Shown piece after piece: positions 22,052-31,289 of a stretch of DNA of 36,864 bases (position 1 is the first letter of the stretch; every line of letters starts with the position of its first letter). The stretch is from Bifidobacterium breve (GTDB lineage Bacteria > Actinomycetota > Thermoleophilia > Gaiellales > F1-60-MAGs149): NCBI GenBank assembly GCA_945877865.1, contig CAMDVX010000003.1, positions 1 through 36,864 of the forward strand. Direction: 5' to 3'. Below the pieces are notes generated by a model, which saw nothing but the letters and a program-made list of their open reading frames with translations, searched no databases and was not told the DNA's origin. A program made the position numbers and the translations under genes.

Positions 22052-24274
<2,223 letters not shown>

Positions 24275-24464
24275 TCACGGCACCCGCACTCCACTCCCGA
24301 CCAAATCGGAGGGGATGACGTCTGGCTGCTGCACGTGTCCTGACGATAGTACGGATTGCCGTTGCGCGGCTCGCTCCCGACCATTGCTCGCTGGTCCCGA
24401 CCACCGTCAACCATCAGCTGCCGACGTTGCCAAGGGGGAAGCCGCCATTGCTACGGTGGTGGGC

Positions 24465-25499
24465 ATGCCAGGGCTGCGGCTGATTGTGCTCGGGCTGCTG
24501 GGGCTGAGCCTCGGGCTGCCGGGCACCGCGCTCGCCCACGGCGGTGCCACGAGCGGTACCGATTACCGCTCGTCGCTCCTCGGCACGCCCGCGGGCATCG
24601 TCGCCCGCATCATCGGCGGTGATGACCGCATCCTGATCGAGCGCACGACTGCCCAGACCGTGGTCATCCTCGGCTACGGCGGCGAGCCGTACCTGCGGCT
24701 TGACGCGCAGGGCACCTGGCAGAACGCTCGCTCGCCCGCCGTCGCTCTCAACGCTGGTCGCACCACCACGGAGCCGCTCGCTGGCAGCAGCGCCACACCC
24801 GCCTGGCAGCGGCTTGGAACGGGCACGAGCGTCGTCTTCCACGACCACCGCAGCCACTGGATGGCTGCGCAGCCACCGGCGAGGGTGCGGGCAAACCCGG
24901 CCGCAAGCCAGCGCCTCTCCGCCTGGACGATCCCCGTCATCGTCGACGGCACGCCTGCCGCGATCCACGGCGACCTGACGTGGGTCGGCCAGCCACGGAC
25001 GTGGCTCTGGTGGTGCGTCTCCGCCCTGCTTGCGCTGTGCGCCGTGGCGGTTGGTTGGCGCAGCCAGCATCGGCTTGCCATCGCCACGGTCGGTGGCGTG
25101 GCCGCCGCCGCAATCACGCTCGTGACGGGCATCAGCCGCGCGCTCGACCTGCCCGACCCGACGACGCCGGTGATCATCGCCACGGCGATCGCTGGGACGC
25201 TGATCACCGCAGCCGTCATCGGCGCCTGGCTCGTGCGCCGTACCCCGGTTTACGGCGCGACGATCATGCTTCTGCTGGCGCTCATGACCAGTGGCGCAGA
25301 ATCAGTCGGGCTCGCTGCCTCGGCCTTCACCTCCGGCCTCGTCCCTGGTCCCCTGCCGACCACGCTGACGCGGATCCTGCTCGCCGTCGCGCTCGCAGGC
25401 ACCAGTGCGGCTGCCGCTGCGGCAGCCGGCGGCTGGCGTGCCCTGCTGACGACCGAGCGCCGAGCAGGCGGCGAGACGACCGCGCCGAAGAGCTGGTAG
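24465..25499 (+). CDS. Uncharacterised exported/membrane protein with a predicted mature N-terminal His and an HDHRxHWM motif
   Basis: Signal peptide ending ALA|HGG, a soluble domain (GYGGEPYLR, HDHRSHWM) and about five C-terminal hydrophobic segments. ATG 24465 is preceded by TACGGT. Confidence 0.8.
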   Translation: MPGLRLIVLGLLGLSLGLPGTALAHGGATSGTDYRSSLLGTPAGIVARIIGGDDRILIERTTAQTVVILGYGGEPYLRLDAQGTWQNARSPAVALNAGRTTTEPLAGSSATPAWQRLGTGTSVVFHDHRSHWMAAQPPARVRANPAASQRLSAWTIPVIVDGTPAAIHGDLTWVGQPRTWLWWCVSALLALCAVAVGWRSQHRLAIATVGGVAAAAITLVTGISRALDLPDPTTPVIIATAIAGTLITAAVIGAWLVRRTPVYGATIMLLLALMTSGAESVGLAASAFTSGLVPGPLPTTLTRILLAVALAGTSAAAAAAAGGWRALLTTERRAGGETTAPKSW

Positions 25500-25502
25500 C
25501 CG

Positions 25503-26093
25503 ATGCTCGCGCGCAGTCGCTCCTGTTGGCTGGTCATCCTGCCGCTGCTCGTGTCGGGCTCGCTGGCGGCGCACGCCGTTGCCTACCGCCTGGTCGGCGG
25601 CTCGGCAGCCGACGCGGACGAGCTGCTCGCCGCCACGGGCCACGGCTACCTCGCCGAGCTGCCCATCGGCACGATGATCGGTCTCGTCACGGTCGCCATC
25701 GGCGTCGTTGGTCTGGGCGTCGAGCGACGGCTCGGCCGCGCCAACCGGGCGGTGCCACCATCGGCCTACGCGTTGCTGCCGCTCGTTGGGTTCGCCATGC
25801 AGGAGCACCTTGAGCGGCTGTGCGCGAGCGGGGCGCTCTCCACGCACCTCCTCACCTCGCCGATCTTCCTCGTGGGGCTCGCGCTCCAGCTGCCCTTCGC
25901 AGCGGCAGCCTGGCTGCTGGTGCGTCTGCTCAGCCGAGTCGCCGACGTGGTTGCTGCGCTGCTGCCAGCGCCCACGCCCCCCCACGCTGGCGTTGCCCCA
26001 GCACGCGTGGTCGAGCGGGTGCAGCACAGCCGCGGTGCCACGATCGCCCGCCACCTCGCGCCGCGCGGCCCGCCCCCGCTCTGGGCACGCTGA
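25503..26093 (+). CDS. Multi-pass membrane protein with a C-terminal RGPP motif (candidate arrest peptide)
   Basis: About four hydrophobic segments with His residues (AAHAVAY, GHGYL, QEHLE), a Pro/Ala-rich spacer, and the ending LAPRGPPPLWAR. Confidence 0.78.
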   Translation: MLARSRSCWLVILPLLVSGSLAAHAVAYRLVGGSAADADELLAATGHGYLAELPIGTMIGLVTVAIGVVGLGVERRLGRANRAVPPSAYALLPLVGFAMQEHLERLCASGALSTHLLTSPIFLVGLALQLPFAAAAWLLVRLLSRVADVVAALLPAPTPPHAGVAPARVVERVQHSRGATIARHLAPRGPPPLWAR

Positions 26094-26150
26094 CGACTCC
26101 GCCACCGGCCAGCGCCGACGGCCTCACCGTAACCGATTGGAGCACCAACC

Positions 26151-26816
26151 ATGCGGAATCACCGCATCCTCAGCCTCGTAGCGTTTAGCGCCGCGCTGGC
26201 CTTCCCTGCCACGGCAGGGGCGCACGTCCACCTCGACCCGGAGCAGGCACCGGCCGCCGGCAGCATGATCTTCTCGATCGTCGTCCCGCACGGCTGCGAG
26301 GGATCGCCCACCACGGGCATCACGCTGCAGCTTCCCCCCGAGGTGCTGTCCGCCAAGCCGGCGCCGCTGGCCGGCTGGACGCTGAGCACTACGACCGAGA
26401 AGGTCGACCCGCCGCAGCCCGACGGCATCGGCGGCGAGCTCACGGAGCGCACCGCTACCATCGCGTGGAGCGGAGGCAACCTCCCCGACGGGCAGCTCGT
26501 CGAGCTGAGGGTGCAGCTGACGCTGCCAGACAGCGCAGGAACCACGCTCTACGTGCCCACCCTCCAGACCTGCAAGGAGGGGGAGACGCGCTGGATTGAG
26601 GTCCCCGCCGCCGGGCAGACGGAGGATGATCTCAAGGCACCTGCGCCGAGCATCCTGCTCGCGGCGGCCAGCGCGGGCCACGGCCACGGCGACGCTGCCG
26701 CGCCCCATCAGGACAGCCATGGCGTACCCATCGCGATCATCCTCGGCGCACTCGGTGCTGCCGCTGGCTGCGCCGGGCTCGTGCTCGGCCTACGCGGGCG
26801 CCGCCGGGCGAACTAA
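26151..26816 (+). CDS. ycnI: YcnI/DUF1775-family copper-binding membrane-anchored protein
   Basis: Signal ending AGA|HV, VPHGCEG, P..GW, I.W.GG, PTLQTC..G...W, PAP and a C-terminal TM followed by Arg residues. Confidence 0.88.
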   Translation: MRNHRILSLVAFSAALAFPATAGAHVHLDPEQAPAAGSMIFSIVVPHGCEGSPTTGITLQLPPEVLSAKPAPLAGWTLSTTTEKVDPPQPDGIGGELTERTATIAWSGGNLPDGQLVELRVQLTLPDSAGTTLYVPTLQTCKEGETRWIEVPAAGQTEDDLKAPAPSILLAAASAGHGHGDAAAPHQDSHGVPIAIILGALGAAAGCAGLVLGLRGRRRAN

Positions 26817-26824
26817 GGGAACAT

Positions 26825-26852
26825 GTCCGGGCCGGCAGCTGCCGGCCCGGAC
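26825..26852. repeat. Perfect 28-bp palindrome between ycnI and copCD
   Basis: GTCCGGGCCGGCAG followed by its exact reverse complement CTGCCGGCCCGGAC. Confidence 0.9.
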
Positions 26853-26858
26853 CCCACC

Positions 26859-28487
26859 ATGCCACGCCACCTCCTCCTCATCCCAATCCTCCTCGCGGCG
26901 CTCGCCGTGCCGACCAGCGCGTCGGCGCACGCAGCGCTGGTCGCGGAGAGCCCTGTCGCCGACTCCGTCCTTGAGCGACCGCCGACCGCGATCGATCTCA
27001 CCTTCACCGAGCCAGTCAATGCCATCGGTGCGCGCGTTCAGATCATCGCCGCCAACGGCAAGCACTACGAGCGCGGGGCACCGACGGTTCGTGACCGCAC
27101 GCTCTCGGCGGGCCTCGACCCCGCGCTCCCTGCAGGCACGACGACGGTGGCGTGGAGCGCGATCTCCGATGACGGCCACCGCGTCAGCGGCGCCTTCACC
27201 TTCGCCGTCGGAGCCGCAACGACGGCTGCACCGAGCGCCACGAGGGCGGCTACGCGCCCCCGCGGTGCCGCCATGAGCAGCACGGTGCTGCGGGCCGCCC
27301 GCTTCGCAGCGATTCTGCTGCTGCTTGGCCTCGTGGCGCTCCTGCTGCTCGTCTGGCAGCCCACCGTGCGCCGTGGTAGCGAGCTCGCGCCGGCCGTTGC
27401 CGACGCTGCCGACGCGGCGTTTCGCCACGTGGCGCGCCGGCTCGCGCTGCTCGTGCCGCTCGCGCTCGCGGCAATCTGCGCGGTCTACCTCCCCGTCGAG
27501 GCCCGTGCCGACGGCATCTCCGTGGCTGAGCTGCTGCGCCTGCAGCAGGGCCGCATCGACGTGCTCGCGCTCGCCATCGCGCTCGCCATCCTGCCGTGGC
27601 TGTGGTGGGCGGCTCGCAGCGATGCTCGTTGGCCGCTGATCGCCGCTGGCCTGCTGGCGCTCGGCCTCGCCGTCACACCTGGGCTGGCTGGGCACGCCGG
27701 CGTGCAGGACCCGGCCTGGCTGGCTCTCCTCGTCGACGGCGTCCACGTGGCCGCGGCTGGCAGCTGGGCTGGCGGGGTGCTCGTGCTCGCGCTGGCTGCA
27801 CCAGCCGTCTTCCGCGCCACGAGCCCCGAGACCCGCGGGCCGCTGATCCACGGCGTCGTGCGGCGCTTCACGCGGGTTGCGCTGGCGGGGCTAGGCGCGC
27901 TCGTGATCACCGGCACCGTCGCCACCATCTCCCTCACGAGCTCCCTGACCGACCTCTGGCAGACGCCGTGGGGAACGATCCTGCTCGCAAAGCTCGCCGT
28001 CGTGCTGCTGGCCGTCGTCGCTGCCCGCTTCGTGCGCCGCGCCATCGCCAGCTTCGAGCGGTCCGTGCAGGTTGAGGCGATTCTGATCGTGACGGTCATC
28101 GCGCTGACCGGCGTGCTGACCGGGCTTGCCCCGCAGCTCAGCCCCGCCAGCCCAGCAGGCGGCCCGCTCCACCTAGAGCGGCGAATCGACGCGCGCACCG
28201 CACAGCTCGACATCGCGCCCGGGCAGGCCGGAGCACCGAGCGAGGTGCACCTCATCGTCGTCAACGACGTGGGACAGCCGGCCGTCGACGTGGCAGACGC
28301 CAGCGTGGAGCTGCGGTCCGAGCAGGCAGGCATCACGCTGCCGGTCACGCTGACGCGCATCGCTGCGGCGCACTGGGCCGGCACGATCACGATCCCCGAG
28401 CCCGGCGCGTGGACCGTCGTCGCTCGGCTCCGCATCGGCGAGTTTCGCGACGAGTCGATCACGACGACGATGACTGCGCTGCCCTAG
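26859..28487 (+). CDS. CopC-CopD fusion (YcnJ-like) copper uptake/resistance protein with a C-terminal soluble domain
   Basis: ASA|HAAL..ESP, LTFTEPV and W.AIS.DGH.VSG.FTF.VG (CopC); GHA, DGVH.AA...WAGG, RRF and G.ILLAKL (CopD). Start ATG 26859; 26823 is the alternative. Confidence 0.9.
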   Translation: MPRHLLLIPILLAALAVPTSASAHAALVAESPVADSVLERPPTAIDLTFTEPVNAIGARVQIIAANGKHYERGAPTVRDRTLSAGLDPALPAGTTTVAWSAISDDGHRVSGAFTFAVGAATTAAPSATRAATRPRGAAMSSTVLRAARFAAILLLLGLVALLLLVWQPTVRRGSELAPAVADAADAAFRHVARRLALLVPLALAAICAVYLPVEARADGISVAELLRLQQGRIDVLALAIALAILPWLWWAARSDARWPLIAAGLLALGLAVTPGLAGHAGVQDPAWLALLVDGVHVAAAGSWAGGVLVLALAAPAVFRATSPETRGPLIHGVVRRFTRVALAGLGALVITGTVATISLTSSLTDLWQTPWGTILLAKLAVVLLAVVAARFVRRAIASFERSVQVEAILIVTVIALTGVLTGLAPQLSPASPAGGPLHLERRIDARTAQLDIAPGQAGAPSEVHLIVVNDVGQPAVDVADASVELRSEQAGITLPVTLTRIAAAHWAGTITIPEPGAWTVVARLRIGEFRDESITTTMTALP

Positions 28488-28540
28488 CCCCCCGAGGGTG
28501 CGCGTCATCGCTATTCTTGCGCGATGCGAAAAGGATCTTT

Positions 28541-28876
28541 ATGGAGCTGACGCTGTGGCAGGAGATTCTGTGGGGCTGGGTCGTCATGACGATCGCCCCC
28601 AAGCTCGTGATCATTCCGATCTGGCGGTGGATGTGGCTCGCGCTGGAAGACACCCGTCGGCAGGATGAGATCGATGCCGCCTGGCGCGCCAGCCTGGAGG
28701 ACTCGGGCTCGGGGCCGGACGGCCGCCGCCGCCAGCGCCCGCGGCAGCCATGGAGCCGCGGACCGCGGCGTGGCCCGGGCGGCTCGGGCGGGGCGGCTGC
28801 TCGCGTGGCGCCGCGCCCGCCTAGCCGCTGCGAGGCACGCGCGCGGCGGCTGCCACGACCTACGCCATCGCGGTGA
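28541..28876 (+). CDS. Small Trp-rich membrane protein with an Arg/Pro/Gly-rich tail
   Basis: AAAGGA then ATG 28541; MELTLWQEILWGWVVMTIAPKLVIIPIWRWMWLAL; GTGA overlap with the next gene. Confidence 0.6.
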   Translation: MELTLWQEILWGWVVMTIAPKLVIIPIWRWMWLALEDTRRQDEIDAAWRASLEDSGSGPDGRRRQRPRQPWSRGPRRGPGGSGGAAARVAPRPPSRCEARARRLPRPTPSR

Positions 28877-29496
28877 CGCCTCCGCCCGACGGGGCGTCTG
28901 TGCTGATCGACCTCCTCGCCGGCTGCGAGACGGGCCGCCTCTTTAACCCCTATCGAGCCGTGGACCCGCTGCACGACGCTGCCGACGGCGCGGCCACTCG
29001 CCGACGCAACCTCGCCACGTACCTCGCCGCCCGCAGCGCACCGCGGGCGCTCCTCGTCGGCGAGGCGATGGGCTGGCGGGGCGGTCGCTTCAGCGGCATC
29101 GCCTTCACCAGCGAGCGCCAGCTGGCCGACTGGGGCGCACCCTACGCGCAGTCATCGTGCCGCCCTGCGGGCTGGACCGAGGCGTCGGCGACGATCATCC
29201 ACGGCGTCCTCGCCGAGCTCGGCATCGAGGACAGCGTGGCCCTCTGGAACACCGTGCCGTTCCACCCGCACCCGCCCGACCGACCGCTGGCCAATCGCGC
29301 GCCGCTGCGCGGCGAGGTCGCGCTGGGCCTCGGGTTCCTCGACCAGGCGATCGCCCTCCTGCGGCCGGAGCGCATCATCGCGATCGGCCGGGTCGCCGAA
29401 GGCTCGCTTGGTGATCGTGCGACCGCACGCGTTCGCCACCCGGCGCAGGGCGGCGCGACGGCGTGCCGAGACGGCCTGCGTCGTCTGCTTGGCTAG
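28873..29496 (+). CDS. Uracil-DNA glycosylase superfamily protein
   Basis: LVGEAMGWRGGRFSGIAFTSE, EASATI, WN.VPFHPH, NRAP, IAIGRVA and VRHPAQGG. Confidence 0.85.
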   Translation: MTPPPDGASVLIDLLAGCETGRLFNPYRAVDPLHDAADGAATRRRNLATYLAARSAPRALLVGEAMGWRGGRFSGIAFTSERQLADWGAPYAQSSCRPAGWTEASATIIHGVLAELGIEDSVALWNTVPFHPHPPDRPLANRAPLRGEVALGLGFLDQAIALLRPERIIAIGRVAEGSLGDRATARVRHPAQGGATACRDGLRRLLG

Positions 29497-29505
29497 CGGC
29501 GCGGC

Positions 29506-30288
29506 TTAGGCGCTGGCGAGGCCGCGGGCGCACCAGTCGCTCCACGAGCCCGGGTACAGCTGCGCGTCGTCGCGTCCTGCATCAGCGAGCCGAAGAATCA
29601 GCGCGCAGGCGGTGACGCCAGAGCCGCAGTAGGCGATCGGCGCGTCAGCAGCGCCGAGCACGTCCGTCGTCACAGCATCGGCTGCGTCGAAGGGCGCGTT
29701 GCGTGCGCCCGCGATGTGGCCCGCGACGGGATCGACCGGCTCCACCTCGCCGCTGTAGCGCGCTGGCGCCCGCGCGTCGAGGACGAGGCGGCCCGCGCCC
29801 AGCGCAGCCTGCACGCCGGCCGCGTCGACGACATCGTTGGCGCGCTCCGCACCGAGCGTGAGGTCGCCCGGCTCGGCGTCAGGATCGCCCTGCGCGAGCG
29901 GCTCGAGCCACGCGGCGAGGCCACCCGCCAGCACGCGGCTGGCGACGCCGTGGTGGCGCAGCAGCCACCACGCGCGTGCTGCCCCGCCCATCCCGTCGTC
30001 GTAGAGCACGAGCTCGCGATCGGCGCGCAGCCCGGCGAGGCGCAGCGACGCCGCGAAGGCATCCCGCCCGGGCAGGGGGTGGCGCCCGCCGATGCGGTCC
30101 TCGCGGACGGGCGCGCTGAGGTCGTCGTCGAGGTCGAGCCGCAGGGCACCAGCGATGTGGCCCGCACGAAAGAGGTCGGCGCCCGCGCCGTGCTCGCCGA
30201 GCCGAAAGCGGCAGTCGACGACCTGGCCGCGGCCTGCGGCCAGCAGGTCGCCGAGCTCGGCTGCGTCGATCAACGGGCGGCTGCTCAT
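29506..30288 (-). CDS. Tandem-domain sulfurtransferase (SseA/rhodanese family)
   Basis: GHIAGA twice, GRHPLP, AARAWWLL, active-site YCGSGVTAC and LYPGSWSDW. Confidence 0.92.
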   Translation of the reverse strand: MSSRPLIDAAELGDLLAAGRGQVVDCRFRLGEHGAGADLFRAGHIAGALRLDLDDDLSAPVREDRIGGRHPLPGRDAFAASLRLAGLRADRELVLYDDGMGGAARAWWLLRHHGVASRVLAGGLAAWLEPLAQGDPDAEPGDLTLGAERANDVVDAAGVQAALGAGRLVLDARAPARYSGEVEPVDPVAGHIAGARNAPFDAADAVTTDVLGAADAPIAYCGSGVTACALILRLADAGRDDAQLYPGSWSDWCARGLASA

Positions 30289-31214
30289 GGTGCGCTCCTT
30301 GGGGGCGTCAGCCGCGGCTGGATCGTGAGGCCGTTGGCGTGGTCGATGTCGATCTGGATCGTGGCATGGTCGATGCCGAACTCGTCTCGCACCACCGCCT
30401 CGATCGTGTGGAGCATGGCGTGCTGATCGACCCCGGCTTCGACGACGACGTGGGTGGCGAGCGCCGGAAACCCATCGGCGATCGTCCAGACGTGCAGGTC
30501 GTGCACGTCGCGAACGCCCGGGAGTGCAGCGAGGCGCCGACCGATCGCGGTCGGGTCGGTGCCGACCGGCGCCACCTCGAGCAGCACGCGAATCGCGTGT
30601 CGCAGCACGCGGACGGAGGCCACGATGATCAGCGCAGAGACGGCCACGCCGGCGACGCCGTCGGCCTCGTACCAGCCGCTGACGGCGATCACGACGCCGG
30701 CGACGACGGCAGCAGCCGACGCCAGCACGTCGCCCGCGAAGTGCAGCATCGTGGCGTTGAGGTTGAGGTTGTCGCGTGCCCCGGCTCGCAGGAGCAGGAT
30801 CACGGGCACGAGGTTGAGCACGACGCTAATCGCCCCCACCACGGCGACTCCTGAGCCACCCACGGTTGGCGGGTCGGCGATCCTGAGGGCCGACTCCCAG
30901 GCGAGCCAGAGGCTGAGCGCAATCAGGAAGCCCGCGTTGACGGTTGCCGCCAGCACCTCGGCGCGCTTGTAGCCGAAGGTGCGGGCTCCGCTGGCTGGTC
31001 GTCGCGCCAGCCAGGCTGCGCCGAACGCCAGGCCGACGGCGACCCCGTCGGACAGGTTGTGGATGGCGTCGGCTGCGAGCGCCAGCGAGTCGAAGGCGAT
31101 GGCCGAGCCGACCTGCAGCCCGCCGAGCGATACGGTCAGGACCAGCGAGACCCAGAGGGCGCGCCCGGCGCCGTGCGAATGGCCGTGCCCAGAATGGCTG
31201 TGATCGTGTCCCAC
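30285..31214 (-). CDS. Cation diffusion facilitator (CzcD/ZitB-like) metal transporter
   Basis: His-rich N-terminus, SLALAADAIHNLSD, TFGYKRAEVLAA, H..GD, VHDLHVW and HATIQ; likely start GTG 31214. Confidence 0.92.
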   Translation of the reverse strand: MGHDHSHSGHGHSHGAGRALWVSLVLTVSLGGLQVGSAIAFDSLALAADAIHNLSDGVAVGLAFGAAWLARRPASGARTFGYKRAEVLAATVNAGFLIALSLWLAWESALRIADPPTVGGSGVAVVGAISVVLNLVPVILLLRAGARDNLNLNATMLHFAGDVLASAAAVVAGVVIAVSGWYEADGVAGVAVSALIIVASVRVLRHAIRVLLEVAPVGTDPTAIGRRLAALPGVRDVHDLHVWTIADGFPALATHVVVEAGVDQHAMLHTIEAVVRDEFGIDHATIQIDIDHANGLTIQPRLTPPRSAP

Positions 31215-31289
31215 GGAGAGAATCGTATCGTGTTGGTGTGTTTTCTTGGTTCCCGCGTATGCTGCACGCATTGAAGGTTTTGAAGGGGG

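What the first reader, a model, noticed from the sequence alone, without database searches (positions are those of the whole stretch)
25503..26153. Membrane protein ending in RGPP directly upstream of ycnI-copCD: candidate copper-sensing ribosome-arrest regulator
Seen: a 196-aa multi-pass protein with His residues in or near its membrane segments, a low-complexity spacer, and RGPP (26064-26075) a few codons before the stop, 57 nt before the ycnI ATG. GCTCTGG (26078-26084), within the footprint of a ribosome stalled at RGPP, can pair weakly (three G-U pairs) with TTGGAGC (26137-26143), which contains the ycnI Shine-Dalgarno. CTCC (26097-26100) is another possible anti-SD. Known: RAPP/RGPP-type motifs stall ribosomes (ApdA, ApdP, ApcA), and the DUF2946 proteins CruR and CutF, which carry CxxC plus a C-terminal Pro-rich motif, control downstream copper genes in Proteobacteria. 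Inference: this may be an analogous actinobacterial system using a His-based membrane sensor without CxxC, coupling membrane insertion or copper to translation of YcnI/CopCD.
Basis: partly seen in the sequence, partly recalled or inferred. Interest (0 to 1): 0.85.

Follow-up and report, generated by a model that had tools for sequence, protein, structure and literature searches.

The report
Ribosome-stalling leader protein before copper-uptake genes
A four-helix membrane protein ending in the ribosome-stalling motif Arg-Gly-Pro-Pro sits directly before copper-uptake genes and is most likely a built-in translational switch of a kind first described in 2022-2025, so it is a good new example, not a new kind of system.

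Summary
ORF 25503-26093 (196 aa) ends ...LAPRGPPPLWAR*, 57 nt before a DUF1775/YcnI gene, which a CopC-CopD fusion follows.

R[GA]PP lies close to the C-end in 253 of 260 relatives and is written with varied synonymous codons. H24, H47, E101 and E104 are invariant and H102 nearly so. The spacing from helix 4 to the motif is fixed at 52-63 residues. The next gene in related loci is mostly DUF1775 or CopC.

In many relatives the Pro-Pro and tail codons pair with the next gene's Shine-Dalgarno, inside a stalled ribosome's footprint. In this window that pairing is weak.

The class is already published: RAPP/RGPP membrane proteins upstream of YcnI genes, with arrest shown for Streptomyces lividans examples (EMBO J 2025, PMC12992588). 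This scan noted similar leaders before on other DNA.

Verdict: new member of a known kind. It is not DUF2946. Arrest, copper sensing and the sign of regulation remain untested.

The parts
25503..26093 (+). Leader or sensor gene: 196-aa four-helix membrane protein ending in RGPPPLWAR*
   Evidence: ORF. No Pfam or NCBIfam family. 469 homologues and 858 cluster representatives. AF2 model with pLDDT 87 and pTM 0.73; helices 6-32, 35-44, 48-76, 86-109, 114-118, 120-153 and 178-184.
25572..25574 (+). His24 codon in helix 1, invariant
   Evidence: Invariant in the 42-sequence alignment A1; codon CAC read.
25641..25643 (+). His47 codon (G-H-G-Y at the outer start of helix 2), invariant
   Evidence: G46, H47 and Y49 are invariant and G48 is in at least 90%.
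25800..25817 (+). Q100-E101-H102-L-E104-R105, a conserved polar cluster at the outer end of helix 3
   Evidence: E101 and E104 are invariant; Q100, H102 and R105 are in at least 90%.
25962..26063 (+). Non-conserved Pro/Arg/Ala-rich linker (residues 154-187) of conserved length
   Evidence: Low pLDDT of 59-71. No conserved columns. The distance from QxPF to the motif's Arg is 52-63 in 221 of 222 proteins, and 56 in the window.
26064..26075 (+). RGPP arrest motif. Expected stall has Pro190 (26070-26072) in the P site and Pro191 (26073-26075) in the A site.
   Evidence: R188, P190 and P191 are invariant. 253 of 260 proteins carry the motif. The P/A-site assignment is by analogy with the CruR toeprint in PMC12992588; it was not measured here.
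26076..26093 (+). Tail codons P-L-W-A-R plus the stop.
   Evidence: In relatives this segment is the anti-SD. In the window it is degenerate.
26097..26100 (+). CUCC, an alternative 4-nt anti-SD just after the stop, outside the footprint of a ribosome stalled at RGPP
   Evidence: It pairs with GGAG in the MFE and centroid of fragment 26064-26153. Forcing it in the longer fragment costs only +1.0 kcal/mol.
26139..26142 (+). Shine-Dalgarno GGAG of ycnI, 8 nt before the ATG
   Evidence: Read. Its four bases are unpaired with probability 0.04-0.77 in the free RNA.
26151..26167 (+). Local hairpin AUGCGG/CCGCAU that holds the ycnI start codon
   Evidence: Pair probabilities are 0.77-0.98. It is also present in the MFE.
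26151..26816 (+). ycnI (DUF1775), a membrane-anchored Cu(II)-binding protein
   Evidence: Pfam PF07987, E 8.3e-39.
26823..28487 (+). copC-copD fusion (YcnJ-like putative copper importer)
   Evidence: Pfam CopC 8.4e-22 and CopD 1.4e-09; NCBIfam CopC and CopD matches, below their curated cut-offs.
24465..25499 (+). Upstream gene of the same cluster; its stop lies 3 nt before the leader's ATG. Signal peptide, then probably a mature N-terminal His (ALA|HGG), an outer domain and a multi-helix membrane tail.
   Evidence: Homologues lie in 18 of 80 related loci, usually after ycnI. No family beyond a sub-threshold YwiC match.

Best explanation
The gene encodes a cis-acting regulatory 'arrest' protein of the copper-uptake cluster.

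Proposed sequence of events:
1. Helices 1-4 insert into the membrane with the N-terminus inside. This follows from the positive charges at residues 4-6 and 74-82 (inference).
2. That places H24, H47, Y49, Q100, E101, H102, E104 and Q129 near the outer face, where they could form a metal site (inferred).
3. About 57 residues after the conserved helix-4 motif, the ribosome reaches RGPP and stalls with Pro190 in the P site and Pro191 in the A site. This is inferred from published RGPP/RAPP behaviour.
4. How long the stall lasts depends on whether the nascent four-helix bundle folds or binds copper and pulls on the chain (inferred).
5. While stalled, the ribosome covers the mRNA just 3' of the Pro codons. 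In many relatives that stretch is the anti-Shine-Dalgarno of the next gene (predicted, not measured). Stalling would therefore switch translation of YcnI/CopCD on.
6. My preferred sign is CruR-like: low copper gives a long stall and uptake genes on; copper releases the stall and turns them off.

My odds: stalling at RGPP 0.85; cis-control of ycnI/copCD 0.7; copper as the signal 0.5; copper relieves the stall 0.3-0.35 against copper induces it 0.15-0.2.

In this particular window the SD-masking stem is weak, so the output step is the least certain part.
For: - Motif: R[GA]PP in 253 of 260 relatives, 1-7 residues from the end in 245 of them. Synonymous codons vary at all four positions (Arg CGC 52, CGT 11, CGG 8, CGA 5; first Pro CCG 46, CCT 15, CCA 10, CCC 5).
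- Sensor domain: invariant H24, H47, E101 and E104, with H102 nearly invariant. The four-helix model is confident (pLDDT 87).
- Spacing: a fixed distance across an unconserved linker (mode 57-58). This resembles the conserved CxxC-RAPP spacing reported for CruR (PMC9426467, passages).
- Linkage: DUF1775 in 39 and CopC in 15 of 77 immediate downstream ORFs. tblastn finds CopCD or YcnI downstream in 57 of 80 loci.
- RNA: in 65 loci, the expected number of the 13 SD-window bases paired to the stalled-ribosome footprint is 3.69. It is 0.96 after shuffling the motif-to-stop segment (Wilcoxon p 8.9e-5) and 0.62 for a window shifted 30 nt upstream. 26 of 65 loci have at least 5 such bases paired. Partner positions peak at +5 to +16 from the P site.
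- RNA, second tool: among 19 relatives picked, the MFE pairs the post-PP tract with the SD, and 12 of 19 have z <= -1.8.
- Literature (PMC12992588, sections 8, 10, 13, 14 read): RGPP gives the most robust arrest. RAPP/RGPP arrest is refractory to EF-P (abstract of PMC12992588). Seven S. lividans RAPP/RGPP proteins stall in Bs and Sl PURE systems and in vivo in B. subtilis, and Arg-to-Ala abolishes the stall. One of them has 4 TM segments, three conserved His and a metal-related downstream gene.
- Physiology: YcnI and YcnJ serve copper uptake under limitation in B. subtilis (bioRxiv 10.1101/2025.05.23.655588, passages).
Against: - No experiment exists on this protein or on any member of this family.
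- In the window the SD is largely free in the predicted ensemble. Folding is no better than shuffles (z +0.33 and -0.10).
- The best local partner of the SD is CUCC at 26097-26100, which a ribosome stalled at RGPP would not cover.
- RNAalifold found no consensus stem: 0 pairs on 27 sequences and 2 trivial pairs on 10. Support for the stem therefore rests on per-sequence folds of related, non-independent loci with heuristically chosen start codons.
- 39 of 65 loci have fewer than 5 SD bases paired to the footprint.
- The leader is not first in its cluster here. Another gene ends 3 nt before its ATG.
- Copper as the ligand is inferred from the neighbouring genes only.
Confidence: 0.6

Rival explanations
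1. The stall is the same, but in this lineage the output is transcriptional polarity, as in CruR. The stalled ribosome would shield a C-rich, unstructured stretch from Rho. Release of the stall would then allow termination before ycnI.
For: A C>G bubble runs from about 25920 to 26240 and peaks at 26040-26117 (C 0.53, G 0.29). SD masking in the window is weak. CruR works this way, with a C>G bubble running from the 3' part of the uORF into the intergenic region (PMC9426467, passages).
Against: The intergenic gap is only 57 nt, against 162 bp in B. pertussis. The C-richness follows in part from Pro and Ala codons. No Rho test and no rut prediction was done. Relatives show SD masking instead.
Confidence: 0.2
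2. The protein is mainly a working membrane subunit or chaperone of the YcnI/CopCD copper system. RGPP would be a constitutive pause that sets stoichiometry, allows co-translational assembly or keeps the mRNA at the membrane. It would not respond to any signal.
For: The four-helix domain is far larger and better conserved than a simple leader needs (16 invariant columns, pLDDT 87). The gene sits inside the cluster here, not at its head. Seven of 260 relatives lack RGPP/RAPP.
Against: Of those seven, one has RSPP and the other six have aberrant tails, Arg-rich and frameshift-like in several. RGPP and RAPP are strongly avoided in proteomes (PMC12992588, section 13). The fixed spacing to helix 4 and the anti-SD placed beside the motif point to a regulated stall.
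Confidence: 0.15
3. The stall monitors membrane-insertion capacity (YidC/Sec), as MifM, SecM and ApdA do, and copper plays no part.
For: Helix 4 ends about 48 residues before the P-site Pro. By recalled force-profile work, membrane insertion can pull on a nascent chain at that distance.
Against: The downstream genes are copper proteins, not sec or yidC, in the window and in most relatives. The conserved His/Glu cluster has no role in this reading.
Confidence: 0.05
4. RGPP is a conserved structural or docking motif that does not stall this organism's ribosomes.
For: In Ec PURE most S. lividans examples gave mainly full-length product, so stalling depends on the ribosome (PMC12992588, section 14). 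The ribosome of this lineage is untested.
Against: All seven S. lividans proteins stalled with S. lividans and B. subtilis ribosomes (same section). The motif sits in a disordered tail next to the stop, with variable residues around it.
Confidence: 0.05

Closest known systems
RAPP/RGPP-containing transmembrane proteins encoded upstream of YcnI-family genes, including S. lividans SLIV_18480 (Fujiwara et al., EMBO J 2025, PMC12992588)
   Same: Small protein under 300 aa. RGPP lies a few residues from the C-end. It has transmembrane segments (four), three conserved His, and a YcnI or copper gene next on the same strand. The phylum is Actinomycetota.
   Different: That protein is described with one Met ligand and a Cys40/Cys127 pair. 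Here no Met or Cys is conserved, and Glu101 and Glu104 are invariant. The profile found matches in few families outside the Thermoleophilia-type ones, for example 0 of 28, 0 of 19 and 1 of 31, with a strict first look. The paper's main text does not mention Shine-Dalgarno masking.
CruR (Bp2923) of Bordetella pertussis, Pfam DUF2946 (Roy et al. 2022, PMC9426467)
   Same: A protein ending in R-A/G-P-P three to five residues before the stop. It lies upstream of copper-acquisition genes. The spacing between the sensing element and the motif is conserved. The proposed logic is that ligand binding relieves the stall.
   Different: CruR is an exported protein with a signal peptide and a CxxC motif, and its output is Rho-dependent termination across a 162-bp gap. 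Here there are four helices, His/Glu residues, no CxxC, no DUF2946 match and a 57-nt gap.
CutF of Rhodobacter capsulatus, DUF2946 (bioRxiv 10.1101/2025.02.05.636593, abstract read)
   Same: A stall at a C-terminal Pro-rich motif melts an mRNA stem that shields the next gene's ribosome-binding site. The same architecture is predicted in many relatives of this gene.
   Different: In CutF copper induces the stall and the target is the detoxifying oxidase CutO. CutF is a secreted DUF2946 protein with a PPP motif that interacts with EF-P.
Sec/YidC monitoring substrates with RAPP-like motifs (ApdA, ApdP, ApcA, SecM, MifM)
   Same: C-terminal RAPP-type arrest chemistry and unmasking of a downstream SD by the stalled ribosome (SD unmasking is recalled general knowledge for SecM and MifM).
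   Different: Those proteins sit upstream of sec or yidC genes and sense translocation or insertion. This one sits before ycnI-copCD.

Membership tests
RAPP/RGPP arrest proteins upstream of YcnI-family genes (class of Fujiwara et al. 2025) | Small ORF of under 300 aa | tested here: met
   196 aa.
RAPP/RGPP arrest proteins upstream of YcnI-family genes (class of Fujiwara et al. 2025) | RAPP or RGPP close to the C-terminus | tested here: met
   RGPP at residues 188-191, 5 residues before the stop. Conserved in 253 of 260 relatives.
RAPP/RGPP arrest proteins upstream of YcnI-family genes (class of Fujiwara et al. 2025) | Next gene on the same strand is a YcnI-family (DUF1775) gene | tested here: met
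   PF07987, E 8.3e-39, with a 57-nt gap.
RAPP/RGPP arrest proteins upstream of YcnI-family genes (class of Fujiwara et al. 2025) | Transmembrane segments or a localisation signal | tested here: met
   Four long hydrophobic helices in a confident AF2 model. No dedicated TM predictor was run.
RAPP/RGPP arrest proteins upstream of YcnI-family genes (class of Fujiwara et al. 2025) | Arg-dependent translation arrest | not testable with these tools
   Needs in vitro translation or a toeprint.
RAPP/RGPP arrest proteins upstream of YcnI-family genes (class of Fujiwara et al. 2025) | Sequence homology to the tested example SLIV_18480 | not tested
   The sequence could not be obtained and the supplements are closed.
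DUF2946 (CruR/CutF) | Match to the Pfam DUF2946 model | tested here: not met
   0 Pfam families at E <= 0.1.
DUF2946 (CruR/CutF) | Conserved CxxC motif | tested here: not met
   The only Cys are C8 and C107, and no Cys column is conserved.
DUF2946 (CruR/CutF) | C-terminal RAPP or Pro-rich stalling motif | tested here: met
   RGPP.
Sec/YidC monitoring substrates (ApdA, ApdP, ApcA, SecM, MifM) | Encoded directly upstream of a sec or yidC gene | tested here: not met
   The downstream genes are DUF1775 and CopC-CopD.

The most novel reading that the evidence does not exclude
This is a large, unannotated family (858 cluster representatives, no Pfam model) of co-translational copper sensors built on a four-helix His/Glu membrane bundle. 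It is evolutionarily independent of DUF2946, and possibly of the Streptomyces example too. Metal-dependent packing of helix 4, a fixed ~57 residues before RGPP, would pull the chain and end the stall. The tail codons after RGPP would double as the anti-Shine-Dalgarno of the copper-uptake genes. One short stretch would thus encode both the stall site and the RNA switch.
Probability: 0.3. Interest if true: 0.65.

Novelty: new member of a known kind. Interest (0 to 1): 0.42.

Why it matters
Post-transcriptional copper control through nascent-chain sensing has been shown in only two proteobacterial DUF2946 proteins. For the YcnI-linked membrane class, only the stall itself has been shown. This family offers many natural variants: fixed spacing, invariant His and Glu residues, and strong as well as degenerate anti-SD stems. 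With them one could test directly how a membrane-embedded metal site is coupled to the peptidyl-transferase centre, and which way copper sets the switch. It would also give annotators a name for a widespread 'hypothetical protein' of Thermoleophilia-type actinobacteria.

Tried and rejected
- Pfam and NCBIfam on the protein gave no family.
- The ESM Atlas gave only unnamed actinobacterial clusters.
- Foldseek against the PDB gave 0 matches at E <= 0.001, so no solved relative exists.
- RNAalifold found no consensus stem on 27 or on 10 MAFFT-aligned intergenic regions. The stems sit in different registers, so alignment-based covariation could not be obtained.
- A test of cognate against non-cognate anti-SD/SD duplexes was written, but the script machine was lost. 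It was not done, and no further scripts were possible.
- Linking the family to S. lividans SLIV_18480 failed. A search from a distant member (L112:1031-1756) returned only unnamed metagenome proteins.
- The sigma-70 promoter and intrinsic terminator scans of 24100-28700 found 0 sites.
- For expression, no RNA holder was listed.
- Laying contigs of four DNA runs showed strain variants but no informative compensatory change.
- A look-up of earlier scan findings by sequence found nothing.
- A Sec/YidC-monitoring reading was considered and rejected because of the downstream genes.
Full report
**What is there**

The window holds a same-strand cluster.
- 24465-25499: a membrane protein of no known family. 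It has a signal peptide followed by ALA|HGG.
- 25503-26093: the 196-aa protein in question.
- 26151-26816: DUF1775/YcnI (E 8.3e-39).
- 26823-28487: a CopC-CopD fusion.

katG lies divergently upstream. The 196-aa protein ends ...IARHLAPRGPPPLWAR*. RGPP occupies 26064-26075, the stop is at 26091-26093 and the ycnI ATG is 57 nt later. Every coordinate in the finding is correct.

**Is it a real, selected feature?**

The protein has no Pfam or NCBIfam family, but it has many relatives:
- 469 proteins at E <= 1e-3 in the 90% clustered collection;
- 858 representatives of 50% identity clusters;
- 162 confirmed places in species genomes, of which the 80 kept are mostly Gaiellales, Solirubrobacterales and other Thermoleophilia MAGs.

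In a sample of 401 genomes of the phylum, 86 had a match. The matches concentrate in five families (14/26, 17/21, 8/10, 15/21, 18/22), and several large families had none. That search used a strict first look, and its tally includes eight unpublished genomes: G148, G226, G088, G174, G001, G239, G018 and G082.

Of the 260 relatives whose sequences I held, 253 carry RGPP (180) or RAPP (73), mostly 1-7 residues from the end. One has RSPP. Six have aberrant tails, Arg-rich and frameshift-like in several. Among the 80 genomic loci, 76 have the motif, two have RSPP and two have none. The four codons vary synonymously, so selection acts on the peptide.

The ~35 residues before the motif are not conserved in sequence. 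Their number is conserved, though. The distance from the helix-4 motif QxPF to the Arg is 52-63 (mode 57-58) in 221 of the 222 measurable proteins, and 56 in the window.

**The sensor-like domain**

A 42-sequence alignment has these invariant positions: H24, L42, G46, H47, Y49, F97, E101, E104, G110, G125, L128, P131, F132, R188, P190 and P191. Near-invariant positions are G19, Y28, G48, P54, Q100, H102, R105, F122, L126, Q129, L143 and A147.

AlphaFold2 on that alignment gives a confident model (pLDDT 87, pTM 0.73). It has helices 6-32, 48-76, 86-109 and 120-153, a short helix at 35-44 and a low-confidence tail.

By the positive-inside rule (R4 and R6; R75, R76, R79 and R82) I infer that the N-terminus and the tail are cytoplasmic. 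The conserved His, Glu and Gln residues would then lie toward the outer face. I could not measure distances, because no coordinates were available. No solved structure resembles the model.

A distant sister subfamily has the same four helices and ends in GRAPP (L112:1031-1756; E 3.9e-9 to the profile). Its first outer loop is His-rich. That fits metal binding outside the cell.

**Linkage to copper genes**

tblastn with the window's own CopCD and YcnI finds one or both downstream, on the same strand, in 57 of 80 related loci. Some of the other 23 loci end shortly after the gene.

I chose one immediate downstream ORF per locus: it starts within 200 nt of the stop and has the highest GC3. That gave 76 loci plus the window. 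Pfam found DUF1775 in 39, CopC in 15 (13 of them with CopD), and smaller numbers of DUF7350/Iron_transport/YtkA, SCO1, redoxins and Cu/Zn-SOD-like domains.

**The RNA side**

By analogy with the CruR toeprint (PMC12992588), a stalled ribosome would hold Pro190 in the P site. By general knowledge of toeprints, it would cover roughly 13 bases upstream and 15-16 bases downstream of that codon.

Over 65 loci with a 15-150 nt gap, I computed how many of the 13 bases before the next start codon pair with that footprint.
- The expected number is 3.69.
- It is 0.62 for a window shifted 30 nt upstream.
- It is 0.96 when the motif-to-stop segment is shuffled (20 shuffles per locus; Wilcoxon p 8.9e-5).
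- 26 of 65 loci have at least 5 bases paired.
- The partner positions peak at +5 to +16 from the P site.

The structures show the second Pro codon and the tail codons (for example CCGCCUCUCCUCCUC) pairing with GAAGGAGG across a GC-rich inner hairpin. A second tool confirmed these folds for 19 relatives. Because I picked those 19, they are not an unbiased sample. 12 of the 19 have z <= -1.8, and three reach -3.6, -5.4 and -5.9.

Three caveats apply. The loci are related to one another. The start codons were chosen heuristically. RNAalifold found no consensus stem on the alignments.

**The window itself is a weak case**

- The fragment folds no better than shuffles (z +0.33; -0.10).
- SD-to-footprint pairing is 0.02 of 13 bases.

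Alignment with the nearest relatives shows that the stem is nevertheless at the homologous place. L004 has GCUCUAAUCGG paired with CGAUUAGGAGC. The window keeps CCGAUUGGAGC on the SD side, but the 5' side reads GCUCUGGGCACG.

The SD's best partner in the window is CUCC at 26097-26100. That lies at +27 to +30, beyond a ribosome stalled at RGPP but within reach of a terminating ribosome. A local hairpin also holds the ycnI start codon, and a C>G bubble spans 25920-26240. In this lineage the output may therefore be weaker, or it may run through Rho as in CruR.

Strain variants in four lake or freshwater metagenome runs leave RGPP, the SD and both candidate anti-SDs unchanged, while nearby intergenic bases vary. 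One variant turns Pro192 into the family-typical Leu.

**What is known**

Fujiwara et al. (EMBO J 2025, PMC12992588; sections 8, 10, 13 and 14 read in full, passages of section 15) report the following.
- RGPP gives the most robust arrest.
- RAPP and RGPP are depleted from proteomes.
- The motifs are enriched near the C-end of small secreted or membrane proteins upstream of, among others, YcnI-family genes, and most of that group are transmembrane.
- Seven S. lividans proteins stall in an Arg-dependent way in vitro and in vivo. One of them, SLIV_18480, has 4 TM segments, three conserved His plus one Met, and a metal-related downstream gene.
- Whether arrest regulates the downstream genes is left open.
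- The main text does not mention SD masking.

CruR is a DUF2946 protein with CxxC and RAPP. It relieves its arrest on copper and lets Rho terminate (PMC9426467, abstract and passages). CutF stalls on copper and melts a stem over the cutO ribosome-binding site (bioRxiv 10.1101/2025.02.05.636593, abstract). YcnI and YcnJ serve Cu(II) uptake under limitation in B. subtilis (bioRxiv 10.1101/2025.05.23.655588, passages).

This scan had already noted similar His-rich RGPP leaders, and RPPP variants, on other DNA.

**Verdict**

The gene meets every sequence-level criterion of the published YcnI-linked RAPP/RGPP class. It fails those of DUF2946 and of the Sec/YidC monitors. It is a new member of a known kind.

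What this analysis adds is at family level: the invariant His/Glu set, the fixed helix-4-to-motif spacing, and the anti-SD written in the tail codons of many relatives. Stalling, the ligand, the sign of regulation and the output step in this window all remain to be shown.

Noticed in passing
window 24465-25499 (+): The gene just upstream (344 aa from MPGLRL...) has a signal peptide that would leave a mature N-terminal His (ALA|HGG). This is like YcnI here (AGA|HVH) and CopC here (ASA|HAAL), and a multi-helix membrane tail follows. Homologues lie in 18 of 80 related loci, usually after ycnI. It has no family and may be a further copper-binding component.
   Followed up: partly
window 26151-26167: The ycnI start codon sits in a small hairpin, AUGCGG/CCGCAU, with pair probabilities of 0.77-0.98.
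   Followed up: no
window 25920-26240: There is a C>G bubble on the coding strand, peaking at 26040-26117 (C 0.53, G 0.29). It is reminiscent of the rut region of cruR.
   Followed up: no
L112:1031-1756 (+) and P0261-P0380: A distant sister subfamily has four helices, a His-rich first outer loop (runs of H, G and Q), a conserved ...CP(M/L)AD..AGRAPP tail (9 of 10 read; one has GRPPP) and a putative lipoprotein with DGGxxF repeats downstream, not ycnI.
   Followed up: partly
L061 (2481-3014 and 5442-5765); L064 (4001-4558 and 5363-5932): Two loci carry two copies of the leader gene. In L064 each copy is followed by ycnI or copC matches; in L061 only the second copy is. L064 thus carries twin modules.
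   Followed up: no
L058, L069, P0234; P0380: Variant motifs occur at the same position: RSPP in three sequences and RPPP in one. Motif searches for RAPP or RGPP would miss these.
   Followed up: no
window 26077 and 26104-26146: Strain variants appear in lake or freshwater metagenome contigs. C>T at 26077 turns Pro192 into Leu. Several intergenic changes and a 1-nt deletion occur at 26130/26131. RGPP, the SD and CUCC are unchanged.
   Followed up: partly
window 22052-24268 (-), 28873-29496 (+), 29506-30288 (-), 30285-31271 (-): Neighbouring ORFs: a 738-aa ORF that reads like catalase-peroxidase KatG, placed divergently from the cluster; a UDG-superfamily protein (Pfam); a 260-aa ORF that reads like a rhodanese; and a 328-aa membrane ORF with a His-rich N-terminus that reads like a cation-diffusion facilitator. 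All but the UDG protein are named from the translations only and were not searched.
   Followed up: no
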